From assembly GCA_002305205.1 (NCBI GenBank), contig DBQJ01000021.1, positions 6,448-64,438 on the forward strand: a stretch of 57,991 nt of DNA, read 5' to 3'. Below are positions 20,172 to 33,929 of this stretch, in pieces. Source of the stretch: a candidate division WWE3 bacterium UBA1397. Its GTDB lineage: Bacteria; Patescibacteriota; WWE3; UBA101185; UBA10185. The position numbers and the translations under genes were made by a program. Under the pieces are notes generated by a model. It saw only the letters and a list, made by a program, of their open reading frames with translations, did no database searches and was not told where the DNA came from. Positions within the stretch are counted from its first letter, which is position 1; every line of letters begins with the position of its first letter.

Positions 20172-20696
20172 TCAGTCTTTTCTACCAATTATGTACAACA
20201 TTAGCATTAAAATCCCATATCCAATCAAAATGATGGTACCGAATATTTGAAACTTATCTAAGAGGATTAAAAAGATGACAATAGGTATAAAAATGATTCC
20301 TATACCTAGGGTAATATGAAGAAGCGTTTTCCAAAAACTTTTTGTGCTAATAAGTGCCGACATTTTACCGATACTTGTTATGCTGACTTCGTGCGTTTCT
20401 TTAAGATAACTTTTATTGTTATTGAAAATACTTTCCCAATTATTTTTAGTACCCGTTTCTTTCCATAAATAATAAACTCCATAGAGTAATAAAAAGACGA
20501 CAACAAAGCTTCCACCTTCTAAAATCTGCCCTACTCCTTGTACTTCTAGCGTTTCATTTTCATGGTTATATCCCCACCCGAATGATTCTCCTAACCAATA
20601 TCTAATCTGATAAAAACCTGAAAACAAATAAATAATCAGTACAAGCCAAAATATCCATTTTATTAATCTTTCACCTAAACTATCTTTTCGCGGCAT
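20172..20696 (-). CDS. integral membrane protein (4 TM), first gene of the element B minus-strand operon
   Basis: 174-aa ORF. Its start codon directly abuts the structured leader. Confidence 0.6.
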   Translation of the reverse strand: MPRKDSLGERLIKWIFWLVLIIYLFSGFYQIRYWLGESFGWGYNHENETLEVQGVGQILEGGSFVVVFLLLYGVYYLWKETGTKNNWESIFNNNKSYLKETHEVSITSIGKMSALISTKSFWKTLLHITLGIGIIFIPIVIFLILLDKFQIFGTIILIGYGILMLMLYIIGRKD

Positions 20697-20806
20697 AAAA
20701 AAGGGACCACTTCCTTGTCCCTAGCCGCGAAGCATTGAGTCCAGAGGGAAGTAGCCCCTTTTCGGACTCAACGCTTTTTAAGCGTATACTTTTTTCGCGG
20801 CTAGGT
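20697..20806 (-). ncRNA. structured 5' leader, copy 1 (candidate cis-regulatory RNA, unassigned class)
   Basis: On the minus-strand RNA: P1 CCUAGCCGCGAA/UUCGCGGCUAGG; P2 GCGUUGAGUCC/GGACUCAAUGC. The loop AAAAGGGGCUACUUCC pairs with GGAAGUGGUCCCUUUU directly before the AUG. The G-U pairs exist only on the minus-strand reading. Confidence 0.55.
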
Positions 20807-28242: not shown

Positions 28243-29364
28243 TTAGTTTGTAAGGTTATATTCAATAAAAGAAGAATCATCATATTTTCCATTCTGCATC
28301 CTATGAGAGATTCCATCTGATTTTAGCTTAACCTCGACCTTTAGTTTTCCATTAGCATTTTGAAAATCTTGCGGTGTTACTTTATACAGAAAGTACGGTT
28401 TTTCGGAAAAAGCATTAGCTCCTCTGGTTTGTGTATAGAAAGCAGTAAAATCCGGCGAGTTAGATGAGAATAAATAGTACAGTTTCTTATCCTCTTTTAA
28501 GTTTGTTCCGGTAGCAGCGATAAAAAGATAATCTCCAGCCTTCAGGTTTGTTGATGAAGTTGTAACCGTGTATTTCTCCGGACCCGTGTAACCATTTGAT
28601 GCAGATTGTTTCACAATGGTTCCTAAATCATCGTACACCTCACTAATAATTGGGTACTGTTGGTCATTGATACCGTAATAAACTTGACTATCTTCCGCAT
28701 TAGTTTCCTTTTCTCCGGCTAGCAGTTCCTTTATTGTTGGTTTATATCTGTTGTTTATGGCTTGTTGGTTAAATGCAGAATAATCTGGATTTTGCTCAAG
28801 ATTGTTTTCGATATTAAAATCTGTGTTTGCTTTGTTTAAGGTGTTCCAACTAGCCATTTTTGCCGGATAGGTTTCGTTAGCGTATTTATTCCACATTTCA
28901 TCTGTCATCTGGTTGTTGTAATAGGCACGCATATTATCAAGATATTCTTTATCTAACGCATAAAGTTGTTTTTTTTCGTCTAGCCGGTTGTTGATTAGCT
29001 CTGTGAACTTCTCCCAAGCCTGCGGGTCTATCTTTGCCGCTTGTTCTGTTAAATCAACGGATTTTTTAAGGTTAGTATTTAAGTTGTTTTCAAAAAGGTT
29101 TATAGCTTCTAATCCTTTTTCAGAACGGATTATAGTTCCCTTAACATAGTCGCTAATTGCTAGGTCTTTTATTGAATAAATTGACGCTGCTTCGGCTGAT
29201 TGGTGAAGCAAGTCTCTGGCATTGTTAATATCGGCAAATACTCGCTTTTGCTGATAAGCATCACGGGCGTTCAAATAAGTACCCGCTACAAACAGCCCTG
29301 CAAAACCTAAACAAAAAACAACAAATATAACTCCAAGTATTTTCAAGATTTTCTTAACTTTCAT
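28243..29364 (-). CDS. N-terminally anchored extracytoplasmic protein
   Basis: 373 aa with a single N-terminal TM. Its start overlaps the upstream gene's stop by 4 nt. Confidence 0.55.
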   Translation of the reverse strand: MKVKKILKILGVIFVVFCLGFAGLFVAGTYLNARDAYQQKRVFADINNARDLLHQSAEAASIYSIKDLAISDYVKGTIIRSEKGLEAINLFENNLNTNLKKSVDLTEQAAKIDPQAWEKFTELINNRLDEKKQLYALDKEYLDNMRAYYNNQMTDEMWNKYANETYPAKMASWNTLNKANTDFNIENNLEQNPDYSAFNQQAINNRYKPTIKELLAGEKETNAEDSQVYYGINDQQYPIISEVYDDLGTIVKQSASNGYTGPEKYTVTTSSTNLKAGDYLFIAATGTNLKEDKKLYYLFSSNSPDFTAFYTQTRGANAFSEKPYFLYKVTPQDFQNANGKLKVEVKLKSDGISHRMQNGKYDDSSFIEYNLTN

Positions 29365-29819
29365 TTTAGAGCCTCCTTTTTGAATAAAGAAAATAAATAG
29401 AAAAGATAAAAAGATGCAGCCAAATCTAACGGCACCCAGGTGCTTCTTGGAAGTTCCGGAACAACAAATGGATTAAATAAAACAAGAATGGAGATTAAAC
29501 CAAATAACCTAATGTCTGAAACATACTTTTTATACCTTACAAGAAGGTAGGAACCTATCACGATAGTGAAAAGTCGCAGGGCATCGTAATAATCAAAATC
29601 GTAATCGTCCGCTTCAAATGGGAGCACCGCCAACAGATACATACCACATAGCGGTAACAAGCATAATTGTGCAAGTTTGTTTAGGTTATTTTTAGTAAAT
29701 AACGATGAAATAAAGTGCTTTATCTTAATAAAATTATCTCGAAATAACAGCACAACTACAGGGATTCCAATGAAGAATAAAATAGGCAATATAGTGTTGT
29801 ATACCGTACTTTCTGACAT
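29361..29819 (-). CDS. integral membrane protein (4 TM), first gene of the element C minus-strand operon
   Basis: 152-aa hydrophobic ORF whose start abuts the structured leader. Confidence 0.55.
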   Translation of the reverse strand: MSESTVYNTILPILFFIGIPVVVLLFRDNFIKIKHFISSLFTKNNLNKLAQLCLLPLCGMYLLAVLPFEADDYDFDYYDALRLFTIVIGSYLLVRYKKYVSDIRLFGLISILVLFNPFVVPELPRSTWVPLDLAASFYLFYLFSLFKKEALK

Positions 29820-29930
29820 AACAAAGGGACTACCTTCTTCGTAGCCCTAGCTTGTCAGCATTGAACCCTCGGAAAGGTAGCCCCTTCGTAGGTTCAATGC
29901 CTTTTAAGTCGGCGTGACTGACAAGCTAGG
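29820..29930 (-). ncRNA. structured 5' leader, copy 2 (same architecture as 20697-20806)
   Basis: P1 CCUAGCUUGUCAG/CUGACAAGCUAGG; P2 GCAUUGAACC/GGUUCAAUGC. The loop AAGGGGCUACCUU pairs with AAGGUAGUCCCUU just before the AUG. A TATAAT box lies 14 nt upstream (29950-29945, minus strand). Confidence 0.55.
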
Positions 29931-30143
29931 TTTTTACTTCTCTGATTATATCGTCATTAGGCTATATAGCATAGGATTTTAATAAAATGTGTAAGGATTA
30001 CACCCTTTTTGCCTATTTAGCCTATTCAAAAATATAAGTGCAAAGTGTATGGATATAACCGGTTATGTGTATTTTGAGCCTCGAAAATTGAACTATCCCT
30101 ACCCCATACACCCCTAATTATTGTTACGATGTAAAATAAAACT

Positions 30144-31154
30144 ATGAAAACTGAATCTAGCAATGATTCGGTGTCTTGGAAAACGGACGCCGGAGAAGAT
30201 GGCACTCTGTTTCGAATGTGGAGATTCTTCTCAAATATCAGCGACAGCCTATTATTAAAAGTTGCAATCAACAAGGAGTTTGGTCAGGATGTCGGAGAAA
30301 TACGAGATAAGTTAAGTATTGATGTGACACGGCTGCGTTCACTTCTTTTGAAGAAGATTTCTAACCCTAGGGTTCTATATTATGCTTTACGCTATAAAAA
30401 CGACCTACCAAAAGACGAAAGTGGTTATGTTGAGGGAAACGAAAGCTATGAACAGGAATACGACGGATTGGGTGCAAAAGAACCTAGATATCTTAAAGAC
30501 ACCGATGCAGCCGCATTGTTACTAGGATTAAAAGAGTTAGGTGTCCTTGAAAAGGAGTATGTTTCGAAGAATGTTGAAGATGATGTAGCAAAGTTGCTGA
30601 AAAAATACCATTTAAGTTATAGGTACTTTCGTCGTGTAGAGAGTATAGTTTTGTATAACGATTTCCCACCTGTACCTGCTTTGTGGGATATGGACTATAG
30701 AGATTTTGTAGGTGATGACTTAACAAAAGAGGACCGCAAAAAATTAGAACCGTTGCTCAAGAATATGGATAAAGAGTTTAAGGCGACGCTAGATACAGAG
30801 GTTTACCGAACGCCCGTTACTTACTTTGATAAGGATAAAAAATGCGTTGTTGTTGAGATATATCCGGACACTTCTTTAGAGCTATTCAAAAGTAAAAATT
30901 ACAAATCTAAACTATTAGAGTTTCAGAAATTACTTTTAGGTTATAGATACACAGATATTAGTTACGATGGCTATGCCGATGCTCTTTACTATTACTTTAC
31001 AACATATAAACATATGAGCCAGAAAGAGGCTTTGTCAAAGATGAAGAAAATCTATGGTCGTAAATATGTTAAGGGTTTTGATAGCGAGGTGACGGCGAGA
31101 GCAAGTACAAGAAAACGCCGATTTGAAAAATACGCTAAAGACATAAGTGAGTAA
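30144..31154 (+). CDS. hypothetical protein (element C)
   Basis: 336-aa ORF. No motif recognised. Confidence 0.5.
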   Translation: MKTESSNDSVSWKTDAGEDGTLFRMWRFFSNISDSLLLKVAINKEFGQDVGEIRDKLSIDVTRLRSLLLKKISNPRVLYYALRYKNDLPKDESGYVEGNESYEQEYDGLGAKEPRYLKDTDAAALLLGLKELGVLEKEYVSKNVEDDVAKLLKKYHLSYRYFRRVESIVLYNDFPPVPALWDMDYRDFVGDDLTKEDRKKLEPLLKNMDKEFKATLDTEVYRTPVTYFDKDKKCVVVEIYPDTSLELFKSKNYKSKLLEFQKLLLGYRYTDISYDGYADALYYYFTTYKHMSQKEALSKMKKIYGRKYVKGFDSEVTARASTRKRRFEKYAKDISE

Positions 31155-32354: not shown

Positions 32355-33890
32355 ATGTATGGTTTAGAAGAACTAAAACCAAAAATAGGAACAAGATTAA
32401 AAGCCGTCGATTACGAGCGTGTAAGCACGCCTGGTCAGGTAATAAACGGGCATTCGATGGAAGTGCAAAGAAAACTTTTTACAACTCTAGTAGAGCAACA
32501 CGATATTGAAGTTCTCAAAACTTTTGAGGACCCAGGGAAATCTGCCAGAAATCTTAATCGAAGGGACATTGAGGAGCTTATGGATTTTTGTGATGACAAC
32601 TCTGACCTTTTGGATGTTGTTTTTGTGCAGGATACCTCAAGGCTTTGTAGAAATGTAGCCGACCATTTAGCCTTAAAAGCATTTCTGAAAAAAAGAGATA
32701 TAAAACTCATCCCGCTTGATGGTTACTTTGGCGATTCTGATGAGGGTGAGTTTGCGGATATTGTTGTTGCAGCAATTAACCAGCTTGAAAGTAGAAGAAC
32801 AGGTAAGAAAACAAAGCGTGTAATGCTAGCACTCGCAGAAAAGGGTTTGAAACCAGGAATGGCTCCACTTGGCTACCTAAACTCCTATCAAAAGGATGTT
32901 CCGATTAAACCAGACCCCGAAAAGAAGCATTTTATTTACTGTATTTATGAGATGTGGCTAACCGGAAGCTACTCTGTAAAAGCAATCGCTGATATCCAAT
33001 TTGAAAAGGGCTTTCGTTCTAAAGAAGGTAAGCAAGTTCAAAAAAATACGATAACAAATATCCTAAAAAATATACTCTATGCTGGTGGATTATTTTACGA
33101 CGGAATAAAATATGAAAAAGCGATGCACGAAGGTATAGTTCCTTTGGATTGGCATTACCGTTCTCTTGCTATGTTTGAAAAGAAAAACAAAGGTGCAAAT
33201 CGAAATAGAAAATATGTAACGCTGTTAGCCGGATATGCCACTTGTCTGAAGTGTGGAAATCAAATGTTTGGTGAATATCATCCAAAAGGTAATTATTATC
33301 GCTGTCAGCATTGTGCAAAAACTAATGTTTCCCTTGAAGATGCCGACGATAAAGTTTCAGCCTTCTTTCACGGAACCGTATTTACAGAAGAAGCCTTGCG
33401 TAAGTTAAGGGATGCGCTCTACGAGGTCAAAAAGGACCAAGGCTCGAGTGTTCCAGAACAGCTAAAGACTTTAAGGCAACGAAGGGACGCTCTGGACAAG
33501 AAAATGCGAGTAATTGAGGACAAGATGTTCTCCGGTGATGAGTTAGTGGATTCTGAACGCTTAAAAGGTAGATATCAGCCACTAAAGGATGAGTTGAGGA
33601 TTGTGGAAGGTCAAATTAAAGACCTAGATAAGCCTTCTACCAATCTTAAAGATTCCGAGATTGAGAAGATTATCAAAGGTTTGAGAAACATTGGTGACCT
33701 TTACGATGCAATGACCAAGCCACAACGAAAGCAGTTTATAAGGTTTTTTATCTCAAAAGCATTTCTGGAGAAGGAGCGGGTTGTAACGAGTTTTGAGTTC
33801 GTACCAGAGTTTGAGGCTTTAGTTACAAGGGATTTAGTTCGTATAAGGGCTAATTGGCTCCCCCGCGTGGATTCGAACCACGAACCTTGA
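32355..33890 (+). CDS. large serine recombinase (element C), 3' end antisense to tRNA-Asn
   Basis: 56 of the first 61 residues are identical to the element A enzyme (hand count), with the same domain layout. The ORF ends PRVDSNHEP, encoded by the complement of the tRNA T-arm. Confidence 0.9.
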   Translation: MYGLEELKPKIGTRLKAVDYERVSTPGQVINGHSMEVQRKLFTTLVEQHDIEVLKTFEDPGKSARNLNRRDIEELMDFCDDNSDLLDVVFVQDTSRLCRNVADHLALKAFLKKRDIKLIPLDGYFGDSDEGEFADIVVAAINQLESRRTGKKTKRVMLALAEKGLKPGMAPLGYLNSYQKDVPIKPDPEKKHFIYCIYEMWLTGSYSVKAIADIQFEKGFRSKEGKQVQKNTITNILKNILYAGGLFYDGIKYEKAMHEGIVPLDWHYRSLAMFEKKNKGANRNRKYVTLLAGYATCLKCGNQMFGEYHPKGNYYRCQHCAKTNVSLEDADDKVSAFFHGTVFTEEALRKLRDALYEVKKDQGSSVPEQLKTLRQRRDALDKKMRVIEDKMFSGDELVDSERLKGRYQPLKDELRIVEGQIKDLDKPSTNLKDSEIEKIIKGLRNIGDLYDAMTKPQRKQFIRFFISKAFLEKERVVTSFEFVPEFEALVTRDLVRIRANWLPRVDSNHEP

Positions 33891-33929
33891 AGTTAACAGC
33901 TTCCTGCTCTACCGTTGAGCTACAGGGGA
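33855..33929 (-). tRNA. tRNA-Asn (GUU), CCA encoded
   Basis: Hand-folded cloverleaf: acceptor UCCCCUG/CGGGGGA, D arm GCUC..GAGC, anticodon loop CUGUUAA, T arm CGUGG-UUCGAAU-CCACG, discriminator G, then CCA. Confidence 0.9.

What the first reader, a model, noticed from the sequence alone, without database searches (positions are those of the whole stretch)
29820..29930. Second copy of the structured leader, in front of non-homologous genes in element C
The RNA reads: CCUAGCUUGUCAG-[17 nt, ...CUUAAAAG]-GCAUUGAACC-UACG-AAGGGGCUACCUU-UCCGAG-GGUUCAAUGC-UGACAAGCUAGG-GCUACGAAG-AAGGUAGUCCCUU-UGUU-AUG.

The blocks conserved with copy 1 are CCUAGC, CUUAAAA, the GGGGCUAC loop core, UCAAUGCU, GCUAGGG and GUCCCUUU. 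A TATAAT box lies 14 nt upstream of P1.

The downstream genes (a 152-aa 4-TM protein and a 373-aa anchored protein) show no obvious similarity to the genes behind copy 1. The leader, not the cargo, is therefore the conserved unit. That would fit a regulatory cassette that the elements attach to exported or membrane cargo. The loop core CUACCUU resembles the 16S 3' tail (anti-SD mimic).
Basis: seen in the sequence. Interest (0 to 1): 0.6.

Follow-up and report, generated by a model that had tools for sequence, protein, structure and literature searches.

The report
Mobile-element leader RNA masking start codon
The stretch is a real, unclassified folded RNA leader with its own promoter. Small integrating DNA elements of ultra-small (Patescibacteria) bacteria place it in front of many unrelated genes, and it most likely gates their translation by pairing its top loop with the bases just before the start codon.

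Summary
On the minus strand, 29930-29817 reads exactly as described and folds far better than shuffles (-51.5 kcal/mol, z -6.1).

It belongs to a conserved RNA family:
- 20 of 86 genomes of the window's family carry it.
- It occurs sporadically elsewhere in the phylum.
- There are 41 model matches in metagenomes and two on viral contigs.
- No Rfam family matches.

Covariation supports P1, P2 and a 16-17-bp loop-to-tail helix. That helix ends one base before the AUG. A TATAAT box precedes every copy.

Similarity between copies stops at the start codon. More than 15 unrelated proteins follow the leader, mostly membrane or secreted. In other scaffolds the same core pairing directly precedes large serine recombinase genes. 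17 of 24 copies lie within 5 kb of such a gene.

The loop-tail helix is too long to coexist with a closed P2. A short local hairpin competes for the same tail. I therefore read it as a two-state translational gate belonging to the mobile element. The trigger is unknown.

"Exported cargo only" and "anti-SD mimic" hold only partly.

The parts
29945..29950 (-). -10 promoter box TATAAT, 14 nt upstream of P1
   Evidence: Read. A TATAAT box (often TGnTATAAT) lies about 8-14 nt before P1 in all 22 aligned loci. Its columns are invariant or nearly invariant. The generic two-hexamer scan did not list it, and there is no good -35.
29918..29930 (-). P1 5' strand, CCUAGCUUGUCAG
   Evidence: Fold. 11 of 12 P1 pairs show changes on both sides across 21 distinct sequences. 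12 of 12 do so in 32 metagenome sequences.
29901..29917 (-). Bulge J1/2 with a mini-hairpin and CUUAAAAG
   Evidence: Fold. It varies in length and sequence across the family and is absent in L045 and L084. The CUUAAAA block is therefore shared only among close relatives.
29890..29900 (-). P2 5' strand, GCAUUGAACC(U)
   Evidence: 10-11 of 11 pairs covary.
29873..29889 (-). Loop strand of the long loop-tail helix, ACGAAGGGGCUACCUUU
   Evidence: RNAduplex gives -27.7 kcal/mol and 17 contiguous pairs. The helix covaries. The extension into the A-run and U-run is kept in 72-98% of sequences.
29858..29868 (-). P2 3' strand, (G)GGUUCAAUGC
29846..29857 (-). P1 3' strand, UGACAAGCUAGG
29827..29847 (-). 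Alternative local hairpin GGGCUAC-GAAGAAG-GUAGUCC, followed by CUUUGUU (terminator-like)
   Evidence: Listed by the terminator scan. Linker-tail complementarity tracks the tail type (CUAC with GUAG, CAAC/AUAC with GUUG). It beats shuffled linkers in most members, with a mean z of -1.6.
29821..29837 (-). Tail strand of the long helix, GAAGGUAGUCCCUUUGU; it ends 1 nt before the AUG
   Evidence: Against G126's leader there is a compensatory C-G versus A-U pair.
29817..29819 (-). AUG start codon of the first cargo gene
   Evidence: A start codon lies 0-4 nt after the U-run in about 60% of family members.
29361..29816 (-). Rest of the 152-aa multi-TM protein (DUF6804)
28243..29364 (-). 373-aa N-terminally anchored protein; overlaps the previous gene by 4 nt and has its own GGAGG
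20694..20805 (-). Copy 1 of the same leader family, in the neighbouring element
   Evidence: 97.1 bits.

Best explanation
The stretch is the 5' leader of an mRNA made from its own promoter. It is a member of an uncatalogued RNA family carried by large-serine-recombinase integrative elements of Patescibacteria.

The RNA starts a few bases before P1 and first folds into a long P1-P2 hairpin. The roughly 21-nt top loop of that hairpin is complementary, over 16-17 bp, to the tail that runs up to one base before the AUG.

When this loop-tail helix forms, it buries the whole ribosome landing region, so translation is off. A helix this long cannot fit in a loop closed by an intact P2. It must therefore trade against part of the P1-P2 rod.

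A short local hairpin (linker with tail) is a second competitor. It leaves the U-run and the AUG free, so translation is on.

The leader is thus a two-state translational gate that the element uses for accessory genes and, in relatives, for the integrase itself.

Shown here: the three helices, the promoter box, the position relative to the start codon, the modularity, and the link to recombinase elements.

Inferred: that it acts on translation, which state is on, and that something shifts the balance. Candidates for that something are folding kinetics, temperature or ions, an element or host factor, or a ligand.
For: The structure is real.
- Folding z-score is -6.1.
- 97.6% of cells are paired, with 26 of 36 pairs showing double changes; 0 of 500 shuffles reach this, and slid controls fall to 35-55% paired.
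- The result repeats on 32 metagenome sequences.

The loop-tail helix is real and reaches the start codon.
- Distal pairs covary CCUU:AAGG, CCCU:AGGG and UUCC:GGAA.
- CUAC:GUAG exchanges with CAAC:GUUG (18 UA and 14 AU, with no mismatch, although the search pattern allowed mismatches).
- The A-run:U-run extension holds for 5 pairs and includes C-G and G-C replacements. One of these is the C/G versus A/U pair that accounts for two of the six differences between copy 2 and G126.
- In L010 and L011 the AUG itself pairs with CAU in the loop.

The start-codon geometry fits translational control.
- A start codon follows 0-4 nt after the U-run in about 60% of members.
- In L009, L012, L014, L016, L017 and L020 this AUG opens a short upstream ORF. 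That ORF ends at or overlaps the start of the main gene, which fits translational coupling.

Sequence-based initiation context.
- There is no canonical SD at normal spacing.
- A crude count finds an SD-like word upstream of only about 21% of long ORFs in this genome, so accessibility of the start region should matter.

A competing local hairpin covaries with the tail.

In the recombinase-leader group the tail follows P1 by 0-1 nt. P1 and P2 covary, and RNAalifold picks the alternative fold. This indicates two exclusive states.

Every copy has a TATAAT box just upstream.

The diversity of following genes argues for a generic, element-owned control module.
Against: The steric argument against coexistence of P2 and the 17-bp helix is geometric reasoning, not a model.

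For copy 2, the nested alternative fold without P1 and P2 is 7.6 kcal/mol less stable than the P1-P2 fold. Switching is therefore not obviously balanced in this subtype.

The tail hairpins followed by a U-run also look like terminators.

About 40% of members have their start codon 20-100 nt further downstream, with their own SD. Direct masking of the start cannot be the whole story for those.
Confidence: 0.55

Rival explanations
1. Transcription attenuator. The tail hairpin plus the U-run acts as an intrinsic terminator just before the gene. That hairpin could be the local linker-tail stem or the loop-tail helix itself. The alternative pairing acts as antiterminator, so control is over read-through rather than ribosome access, or over both.
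For: The scan lists GGGCUAC-GAAGAAG-GUAGUCC followed by CUUUGUU as terminator-like. The A-run, G+C-rich helix and U-run layout is the classic terminator layout. Local hairpins of -9 to -15 kcal/mol occur in about a quarter of members.
Against: In many members the local stem has only 4-5 bp and is separated from the U-run by CCC. In the recombinase group only 3 U follow the helix. Both pairings of the tail look terminator-like, so it is unclear which would be the 'on' state. A start codon fixed 0-4 nt after the U-run leaves no room for a separate ribosome site, which points to translation.
Confidence: 0.17
2. Constitutive 5' element without switching. A 5'-terminal hairpin would protect the mRNA from 5'-end-dependent decay, insulate cargo expression, and simply damp translation to a fixed low level.
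For: The RNA starts only a few bases before a 23-bp hairpin. The very diverse cargo fits a generic expression cassette.
Against: A stabiliser needs neither the strongly conserved loop sequence nor the covarying loop-tail helix. It also does not need the covarying competitor hairpin or the conserved G-U wobble, seen in 19/21 and 32/32 sequences.
Confidence: 0.08
3. Ligand-sensing riboswitch. The loop-tail helix with its conserved G-U and flanking A/U runs would form a pocket for a small molecule or ion.
For: The architecture resembles pseudoknot riboswitches that hide the ribosome site. Core nucleotides are strongly conserved, and no Rfam family accounts for it.
Against: Nearly all conserved bases sit inside a regular helix, and the junction is not conserved and can be absent. 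The genes controlled are functionally incoherent: DUF6804, DUF4352, a GDSL lipase, SHOCT and serine recombinases. That is unlike metabolite riboswitches.
Confidence: 0.07
4. Discrete small RNA of about 115 nt, ended at the U-run. It would act in trans, for example on other copies, on recombinase mRNA, or as a partner or decoy of an element protein. Downstream genes would be read only by leak-through.
For: It has its own promoter, a compact fold and a 3' U-run. Several copies per genome carry partly cross-complementary loops and tails.
Against: The fixed position of a start codon right after the U-run, and the upstream ORFs coupled to the main genes, are features of a cis leader. No separate promoter for the cargo genes is evident.
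Confidence: 0.06
5. DNA-level site: a recombination or operator palindrome, or a terminator for the opposite strand.
For: It has long inverted repeats next to recombinase genes. On the + strand the hairpin is followed by TTTTT. Cargo is exchanged exactly at its 3' edge.
Against: Arms vary freely while staying complementary, with many G-U pairs that would be A-C mismatches on the other strand. The loop-tail pairing is non-nested. The att cores of these elements were placed elsewhere, at the tRNA-Asn end, by earlier unchecked notes.
Confidence: 0.04

Closest known systems
repZ/repA leader pseudoknot of IncI-alpha and IncB plasmids (Rfam RF01087, PK-repZ)
   Same: It is the mRNA leader of a mobile element. 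The loop of an upstream hairpin pairs with bases next to the start region of the controlled gene. A short leader ORF is translationally coupled to the main gene in some members.
   Different: In the plasmids the pseudoknot is short and activates translation, and an antisense RNA sets the state. Here the helix is 16-17 bp and covers the region up to -2, which should block initiation. No antisense RNA is shown. There is no covariance-model match; the only PK-repZ hit (E 0.3, L045 87-232) lies away from the leader.
Pseudoknot riboswitches that hide the ribosome site (preQ1-II, SAM-II, SAM-V)
   Same: A loop-to-3'-tail pairing sequesters the translation start region. The element is a compact 5' leader.
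   Different: There is no Rfam match and no conserved unpaired pocket. The helix is far longer, and the controlled genes have no common function.
Kinetically or structurally gated leaders of mobile-element genes (hok mRNA of plasmid R1; IS10 fold-back inhibition; IS200 tnpA 5' stem-loop)
   Same: The start region of an element gene, including recombinase or transposase genes, is buried by long-range pairing. Alternative folds decide expression.
   Different: The sequence family and the organisms are different. Here the masking partner is presented in the loop of a pre-folded 5' hairpin, and the cassette carries its own promoter. It is also reused for many cargo genes.
LOOT RNA motif (Rfam RF03000) and lysM-TM7 motif (Weinberg et al. 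2017, PMC5737381)
   Same: Both are structured RNAs of unknown or cis-regulatory role found in the same bacteria. LOOT occurs on the same G126 contig, 7.3 kb from that genome's leader and between recombinase genes.
   Different: The LOOT instance has an unrelated sequence and fold. Neither model matches the leader, even at E 10.

Membership tests
Any Rfam 15 family (including LOOT RF03000, lysM-TM7, PK-repZ RF01087, preQ1-II, SAM-II/V) | Covariance-model match at or near the family's gathering score | tested here: not met
   The whole window at gathering score gives only tRNAs. The stretch 29600-30150 at E<=10 gives nothing on the minus strand. Six related loci at E<=1 give nothing over the leaders. 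LOOT has no match in the window's genome and is found in G126 only at another place.
Patescibacteria serine-recombinase-element leader RNA (uncatalogued family, defined here by models R1 and R2) | Full-length match to the model: P1, P2, loop A-run+GGGGCWAC, tail GUWGUCCC+U-run | tested here: met
   Copy 2 scores 104.4 bits, E 7.6e-22, over model positions 1-113. Copy 2 was among the sequences the models were built from. Independent members score 39-108 bits.
Patescibacteria serine-recombinase-element leader RNA | Own -10 box directly upstream | tested here: met
   TATAAT at 29950-29945. The box is invariant in 22 of 22 aligned loci.
Patescibacteria serine-recombinase-element leader RNA | Location on an element with a large serine recombinase | tested here: met
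   The recombinase gene at 32355-33890 lies about 2.5 kb away. 17 of 24 copies lie within 5 kb of one.
Translational operator that masks the start region | Conserved pairing that covers the bases just upstream of the start codon | tested here: met
   A 17-bp helix pairs 29873-29889 with 29821-29837, and the AUG is at 29819. Covariation is shown.
Translational operator that masks the start region | A measurable effect on ribosome binding or protein yield | not testable with these tools
   Needs toeprinting or reporter assays.
Metabolite riboswitch | Conserved unpaired nucleotides that can form a ligand pocket | tested here: inconclusive
   The conserved bases are almost all within the loop-tail helix. 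The junction J1/2 is variable or absent. A conserved G-U is present.
Metabolite riboswitch | Association with genes of one coherent pathway | tested here: not met
   At least 15 unrelated protein families plus recombinases follow the leader.
Intrinsic-terminator attenuator | G+C-rich stem immediately followed by a U-run, conserved across members | tested here: inconclusive
   Met in copy 2. Weak in many members, where the stem is 4-5 bp with a CCC spacer.
Intrinsic-terminator attenuator | Transcripts that end at the U-run | not testable with these tools
DNA recombination site (attC-like or att) | Conserved double-strand sequence symmetry or folded-DNA site at cassette borders, with the matching integrase | tested here: not met
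   The arms covary freely with G-U pairs and strand asymmetry. The recombinases are serine type, and earlier unchecked notes place the att cores elsewhere.

The most novel reading that the evidence does not exclude
The leader could be a sensor or partner RNA of the mobile element's life cycle. It would be a new class in which a pre-folded apical loop captures the nascent 3' tail. The resulting helix would at once terminate transcription and mask the start codon, and a signal tied to the element's state would set the balance. That signal could be excised versus integrated state, an element protein such as the recombinase or its wHTH neighbour, or host stress. The same switch would then decide both integrase and cargo expression. 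The 5'-truncated third copy (genome contig C15) would be such an 'always off' form.
Probability: 0.15. Interest if true: 0.85.

Novelty: new variant of a known kind. Interest (0 to 1): 0.6.

Why it matters
Patescibacteria make up a large share of bacterial diversity, yet almost nothing is known about how they or their mobile elements regulate genes.

This leader is a compact promoter-plus-RNA cassette with well over 50 distinct natural variants and strong covariation. Integrating elements reuse it for surface and membrane accessory genes, and also for their serine integrases.

If it is a true two-state gate, it offers three things:
- a testable handle on when these elements express integrase and cargo;
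- a natural example of regulation by steric competition between a hairpin and a loop-tail helix;
- a portable control part for organisms that are only now becoming culturable.

Tried and rejected
- **MAFFT alignment.** Alignment of the first 2-4 copies misplaced a gap in P1. For the seed model R1 I removed one A from copy 1's A-run so that P1 aligned. All later alignments come from the models.
- **Strict DNA pattern.** Over 401 phylum genomes it found only the window's genome and G126. The covariance models were needed to see the family.
- **PHROGs.** No hit for ten proteins of the two elements.
- **Literature.** Two full-text searches found no description of this RNA.
- **Structural homology of the 152-aa and 174-aa proteins.** I did not run the large homology searches or structure predictions. 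BLASTP shows no similarity and only the 152-aa protein hits DUF6804. The cargo census already excludes a simple operon duplication, so the answer would not change the verdict.
- **Resemblance of the tail GGUAGUCC to 16S rRNA around position 800.** I considered it from memory and dropped it as a post-hoc 8-mer match.
- **Short antisense RNA.** I considered one with a promoter in the tail complement and set it aside, because no good -10 is present and the cargo 5' ends are not conserved.
- **RNA-guided recombinase.** I considered this and set it aside, because cargo genes lie between the leader and the recombinase in the window's family.

Full report
**1. What is in the sequence**

The feature lies on the minus strand.

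A TATAAT box sits at 29950-29945, 14 nt before P1.

RNAfold gives two stacked helices:
- P1: 29930-29918 with 29857-29846.
- P2: 29900-29890 with 29868-29858.

A 17-nt bulge lies on the 5' side between them. The fold energy is -51.5 kcal/mol, against -29.8 +/- 3.6 for shuffles (z -6.1, 0 of 200 as good).

Copy 1 (20805-20694) folds alike. The window holds only these two copies. The genome holds a third copy, truncated at its 5' side, on another contig.

**2. It is a conserved RNA family, not a chance palindrome**

I built a seed model from four copies (R1). It found full-length matches in 20 of 86 genomes of the window's family, spread over 17 of 51 genera.

A second model from 22 sequences (R2) gave:
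- matches in 22 of 134 genomes of the class;
- matches in 12 of 401 evenly sampled genomes of the phylum, three of them outside the class.

A DNA pattern for the core found 2 viral contigs and 93 metagenome stretches. Of the loci returned, 41 match R2, and 32 of those are distinct.

The organism is a Saccharibacteria-type Patescibacterium. One matching record is titled uncultured Candidatus Saccharibacteria. The genome is 0.73 Mb at 34% G+C.

No Rfam family matches at gathering score, at E<=10 over the region, or in related loci.

It is a different RNA that occurs elsewhere on the same G126 contig.

**3. Three helices are supported by covariation**

On 21 distinct genome sequences:
- 97.6% of cells form standard pairs.
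- 26 of 36 pairs show changes on both sides; no shuffle of 500 reaches this.
- Sliding the partner by 1-3 columns drops pairing to 35-55%.
- By helix, the pairs that covary number P1 11 of 12, P2 10 of 11, and loop-tail 5 of 13.

The 32 metagenome sequences repeat this result. There the core letters were fixed by the search pattern. The two free W positions always paired (18 U-A, 14 A-U, no mismatch), and the distal pairs outside the pattern covary (C-G 22, U-A 9).

A G-U wobble inside the core is kept in 19 of 21 and 32 of 32 sequences. It would be an A-C mismatch on the other strand, so the sense-strand RNA is the folded molecule.

**4. The loop-tail helix runs up to the start codon**

RNAduplex pairs 16-19 bases of the loop with the tail, at -24 to -33 kcal/mol.

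In copy 2 the loop strand is ACGAAGGGGCUACCUUU (29889-29873). It pairs with GAAGGUAGUCCCUUUGU (29837-29821), one base before the AUG at 29819.

The five pairs beyond GGGG (A-run with U-run) are kept in 72-98% of sequences. They include non-A-U replacements.

The clearest case is the leader in G126. It differs from copy 2 at 6 of 114 positions, and two of those form a compensatory pair in this extension: loop C with tail G, against A with U.

In L010 and L011 the AUG itself pairs with CAU in the loop.

**5. Two states rather than one knot (inference)**

A 17-bp helix is about 48 A long. The loop has only about 4 bases left to reach back to the closing pair of P2. The full helix and a closed P2 therefore cannot coexist.

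The linker from P1 to the tail is also short, 3-14 nt, while P1 and P2 together span about 60 A.

A second partner for the tail exists. The linker, together with the last Gs of P1, forms a local hairpin with GUAGUCC. In copy 2 this is 29847-29827, and the scan lists it as terminator-like.

Across the family the linker follows the tail type: CUAC goes with GUAG, and CAAC or AUAC with GUUG. The hairpin beats shuffled linkers in most members (mean z -1.6).

For copy 2, the nested alternative (loop-tail helix without P1 and P2) is 7.6 kcal/mol less stable than the P1-P2 fold.

**6. The leader is the portable unit**

Identity between copy 2 and copy 1 is 71% in the leader and at the random baseline on both sides.

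Copy 2 and G126's leader are 95% identical. Their upstream flanks are 69-75% identical, and their downstream flanks are at baseline.

The copy-2-type leader stands before three different proteins:
- the 152-aa DUF6804 protein in this window;
- a 362-aa anchored protein in G126, whose C-terminal domain matches copy 1's second gene (E 5e-20);
- a 193-aa protein in L105.

Over 22 genome loci the first genes fall into at least 15 unrelated groups. Most have TM segments. They include zinc-ribbon/DUF4352 proteins, a GDSL lipase and a SHOCT protein.

In six loci the AUG after the leader opens an ORF of 8-46 codons. That ORF ends at or overlaps the start of the main gene, which has a strong SD.

**7. 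Link to serine recombinase elements**

The window carries three large serine recombinase genes.

17 of 24 leader copies lie within 5 kb of such a gene, and 19 lie within 10 kb. In 11 cases the recombinase lies downstream in the same orientation.

Among pattern hits that do not fit R2, the same core pairing sits in other hairpin scaffolds with their own TATAAT box. It lies 0-96 nt upstream of recombinase genes in at least 21 loci. All 10 proteins tested carry Resolvase, Recombinase and zinc-ribbon domains.

In one such group of nine:
- P1 and P2 covary.
- The tail follows P1 by 0-1 nt.
- RNAalifold prefers the alternative fold.

I found this link before reading earlier notes of this scan, which describe similar recombinase leaders in other genomes. 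Those notes are unchecked leads, not evidence.

**8. Most likely mechanism**

The element's promoter makes an mRNA that begins at P1, and the P1-P2 hairpin forms first.

The tail then either stays free or sits in the weak local hairpin, which leaves the start region open. Alternatively it zips onto the loop, which buries the region from -2 to -18.

The 16S 3' end is canonical (CCUCC). A crude count finds an SD-like word upstream of only about a fifth of long ORFs, and none at normal spacing here. Access to the U-rich start region should therefore decide initiation.

The incoherent cargo argues against a metabolite riboswitch. It favours a generic gate owned by the element.

What shifts the balance is unknown. 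I put 0.55 on a cis-acting translational gate. The rivals are:

| Rival | Confidence |
|---|---|
| Attenuator | 0.17 |
| Passive stabiliser | 0.08 |
| Ligand riboswitch | 0.07 |
| Discrete small RNA | 0.06 |
| DNA-level site | 0.04 |

**9. Limits**

The steric argument is not a 3D model. Covariation counts rest on model-fitted alignments, although the slid controls and the free W positions speak for them.

Noticed in passing
Genome contig C15:2469-2592, minus strand (outside the window; same sequence as L061 4952-5075): A third copy of the leader whose 5' half is replaced by unrelated sequence, so the 5' strands of P1 and P2 are missing. The loop motif, the 3' strands, the tail and the U-run are intact. 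It can only form the loop-tail hairpin. A 306-aa membrane protein homologous to L026's follows it.
   Followed up: partly
L041, L062, L063, L066, L073, L078, L086, L091, L093 (and L039, L047, L054, L076, L082 in another scaffold): Leaders with the same A-run+GGGGCAAC / GUUGUCCC+U-run core lie directly upstream of large serine recombinase genes. They have a different hairpin scaffold, with an extra hairpin inside the loop and the tail 0-1 nt after P1. Two mutually exclusive folds both show covariation.
   Followed up: partly
Window about 30003-30030 (read on the minus strand), and the same position in L005, L007, L008: A direct repeat AATAGGMTAMATAGG lies about 85-105 nt upstream of the leader. 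It is conserved between loci whose flanks otherwise diverge. It could be an operator, or the promoter region of the divergent 336-aa gene.
   Followed up: no
L012, L014, L016, L017, L020, L026 (70-110 nt downstream of their leaders): A conserved box UGCGUCAUCCAU lies inside the short upstream ORF. It could pair with the SD region GGGUGAU of the following zinc-ribbon/DUF4352 gene. That would be a second masking hairpin, opened by translation of the short ORF.
   Followed up: no
Window 29817-29935, + strand: Read on the opposite strand, the hairpin is followed by TTTTT. It would therefore also act as an intrinsic terminator for antisense transcription coming out of the cargo genes.
   Followed up: no
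G126:C4:11730-11844 (L133 831-945, minus strand): A LOOT RNA (Rfam RF03000, 70.8 bits) sits between two serine recombinase genes on the same contig as G126's leader, in front of a roughly 200-aa ORF. LOOT may be another leader used by these elements.
   Followed up: partly
L078 1880-1950: A tRNA gene lies antisense under the 3' end of the recombinase ORF (469-1965). This is the same arrangement as at tRNA-Asn in the window (33855-33929).
   Followed up: no
Whole genome: Only about 21% of ORFs of at least 200 codons (first-ATG starts, a crude measure) have an SD-like word within 22 nt upstream, although the 16S 3' end is canonical.
   Followed up: no
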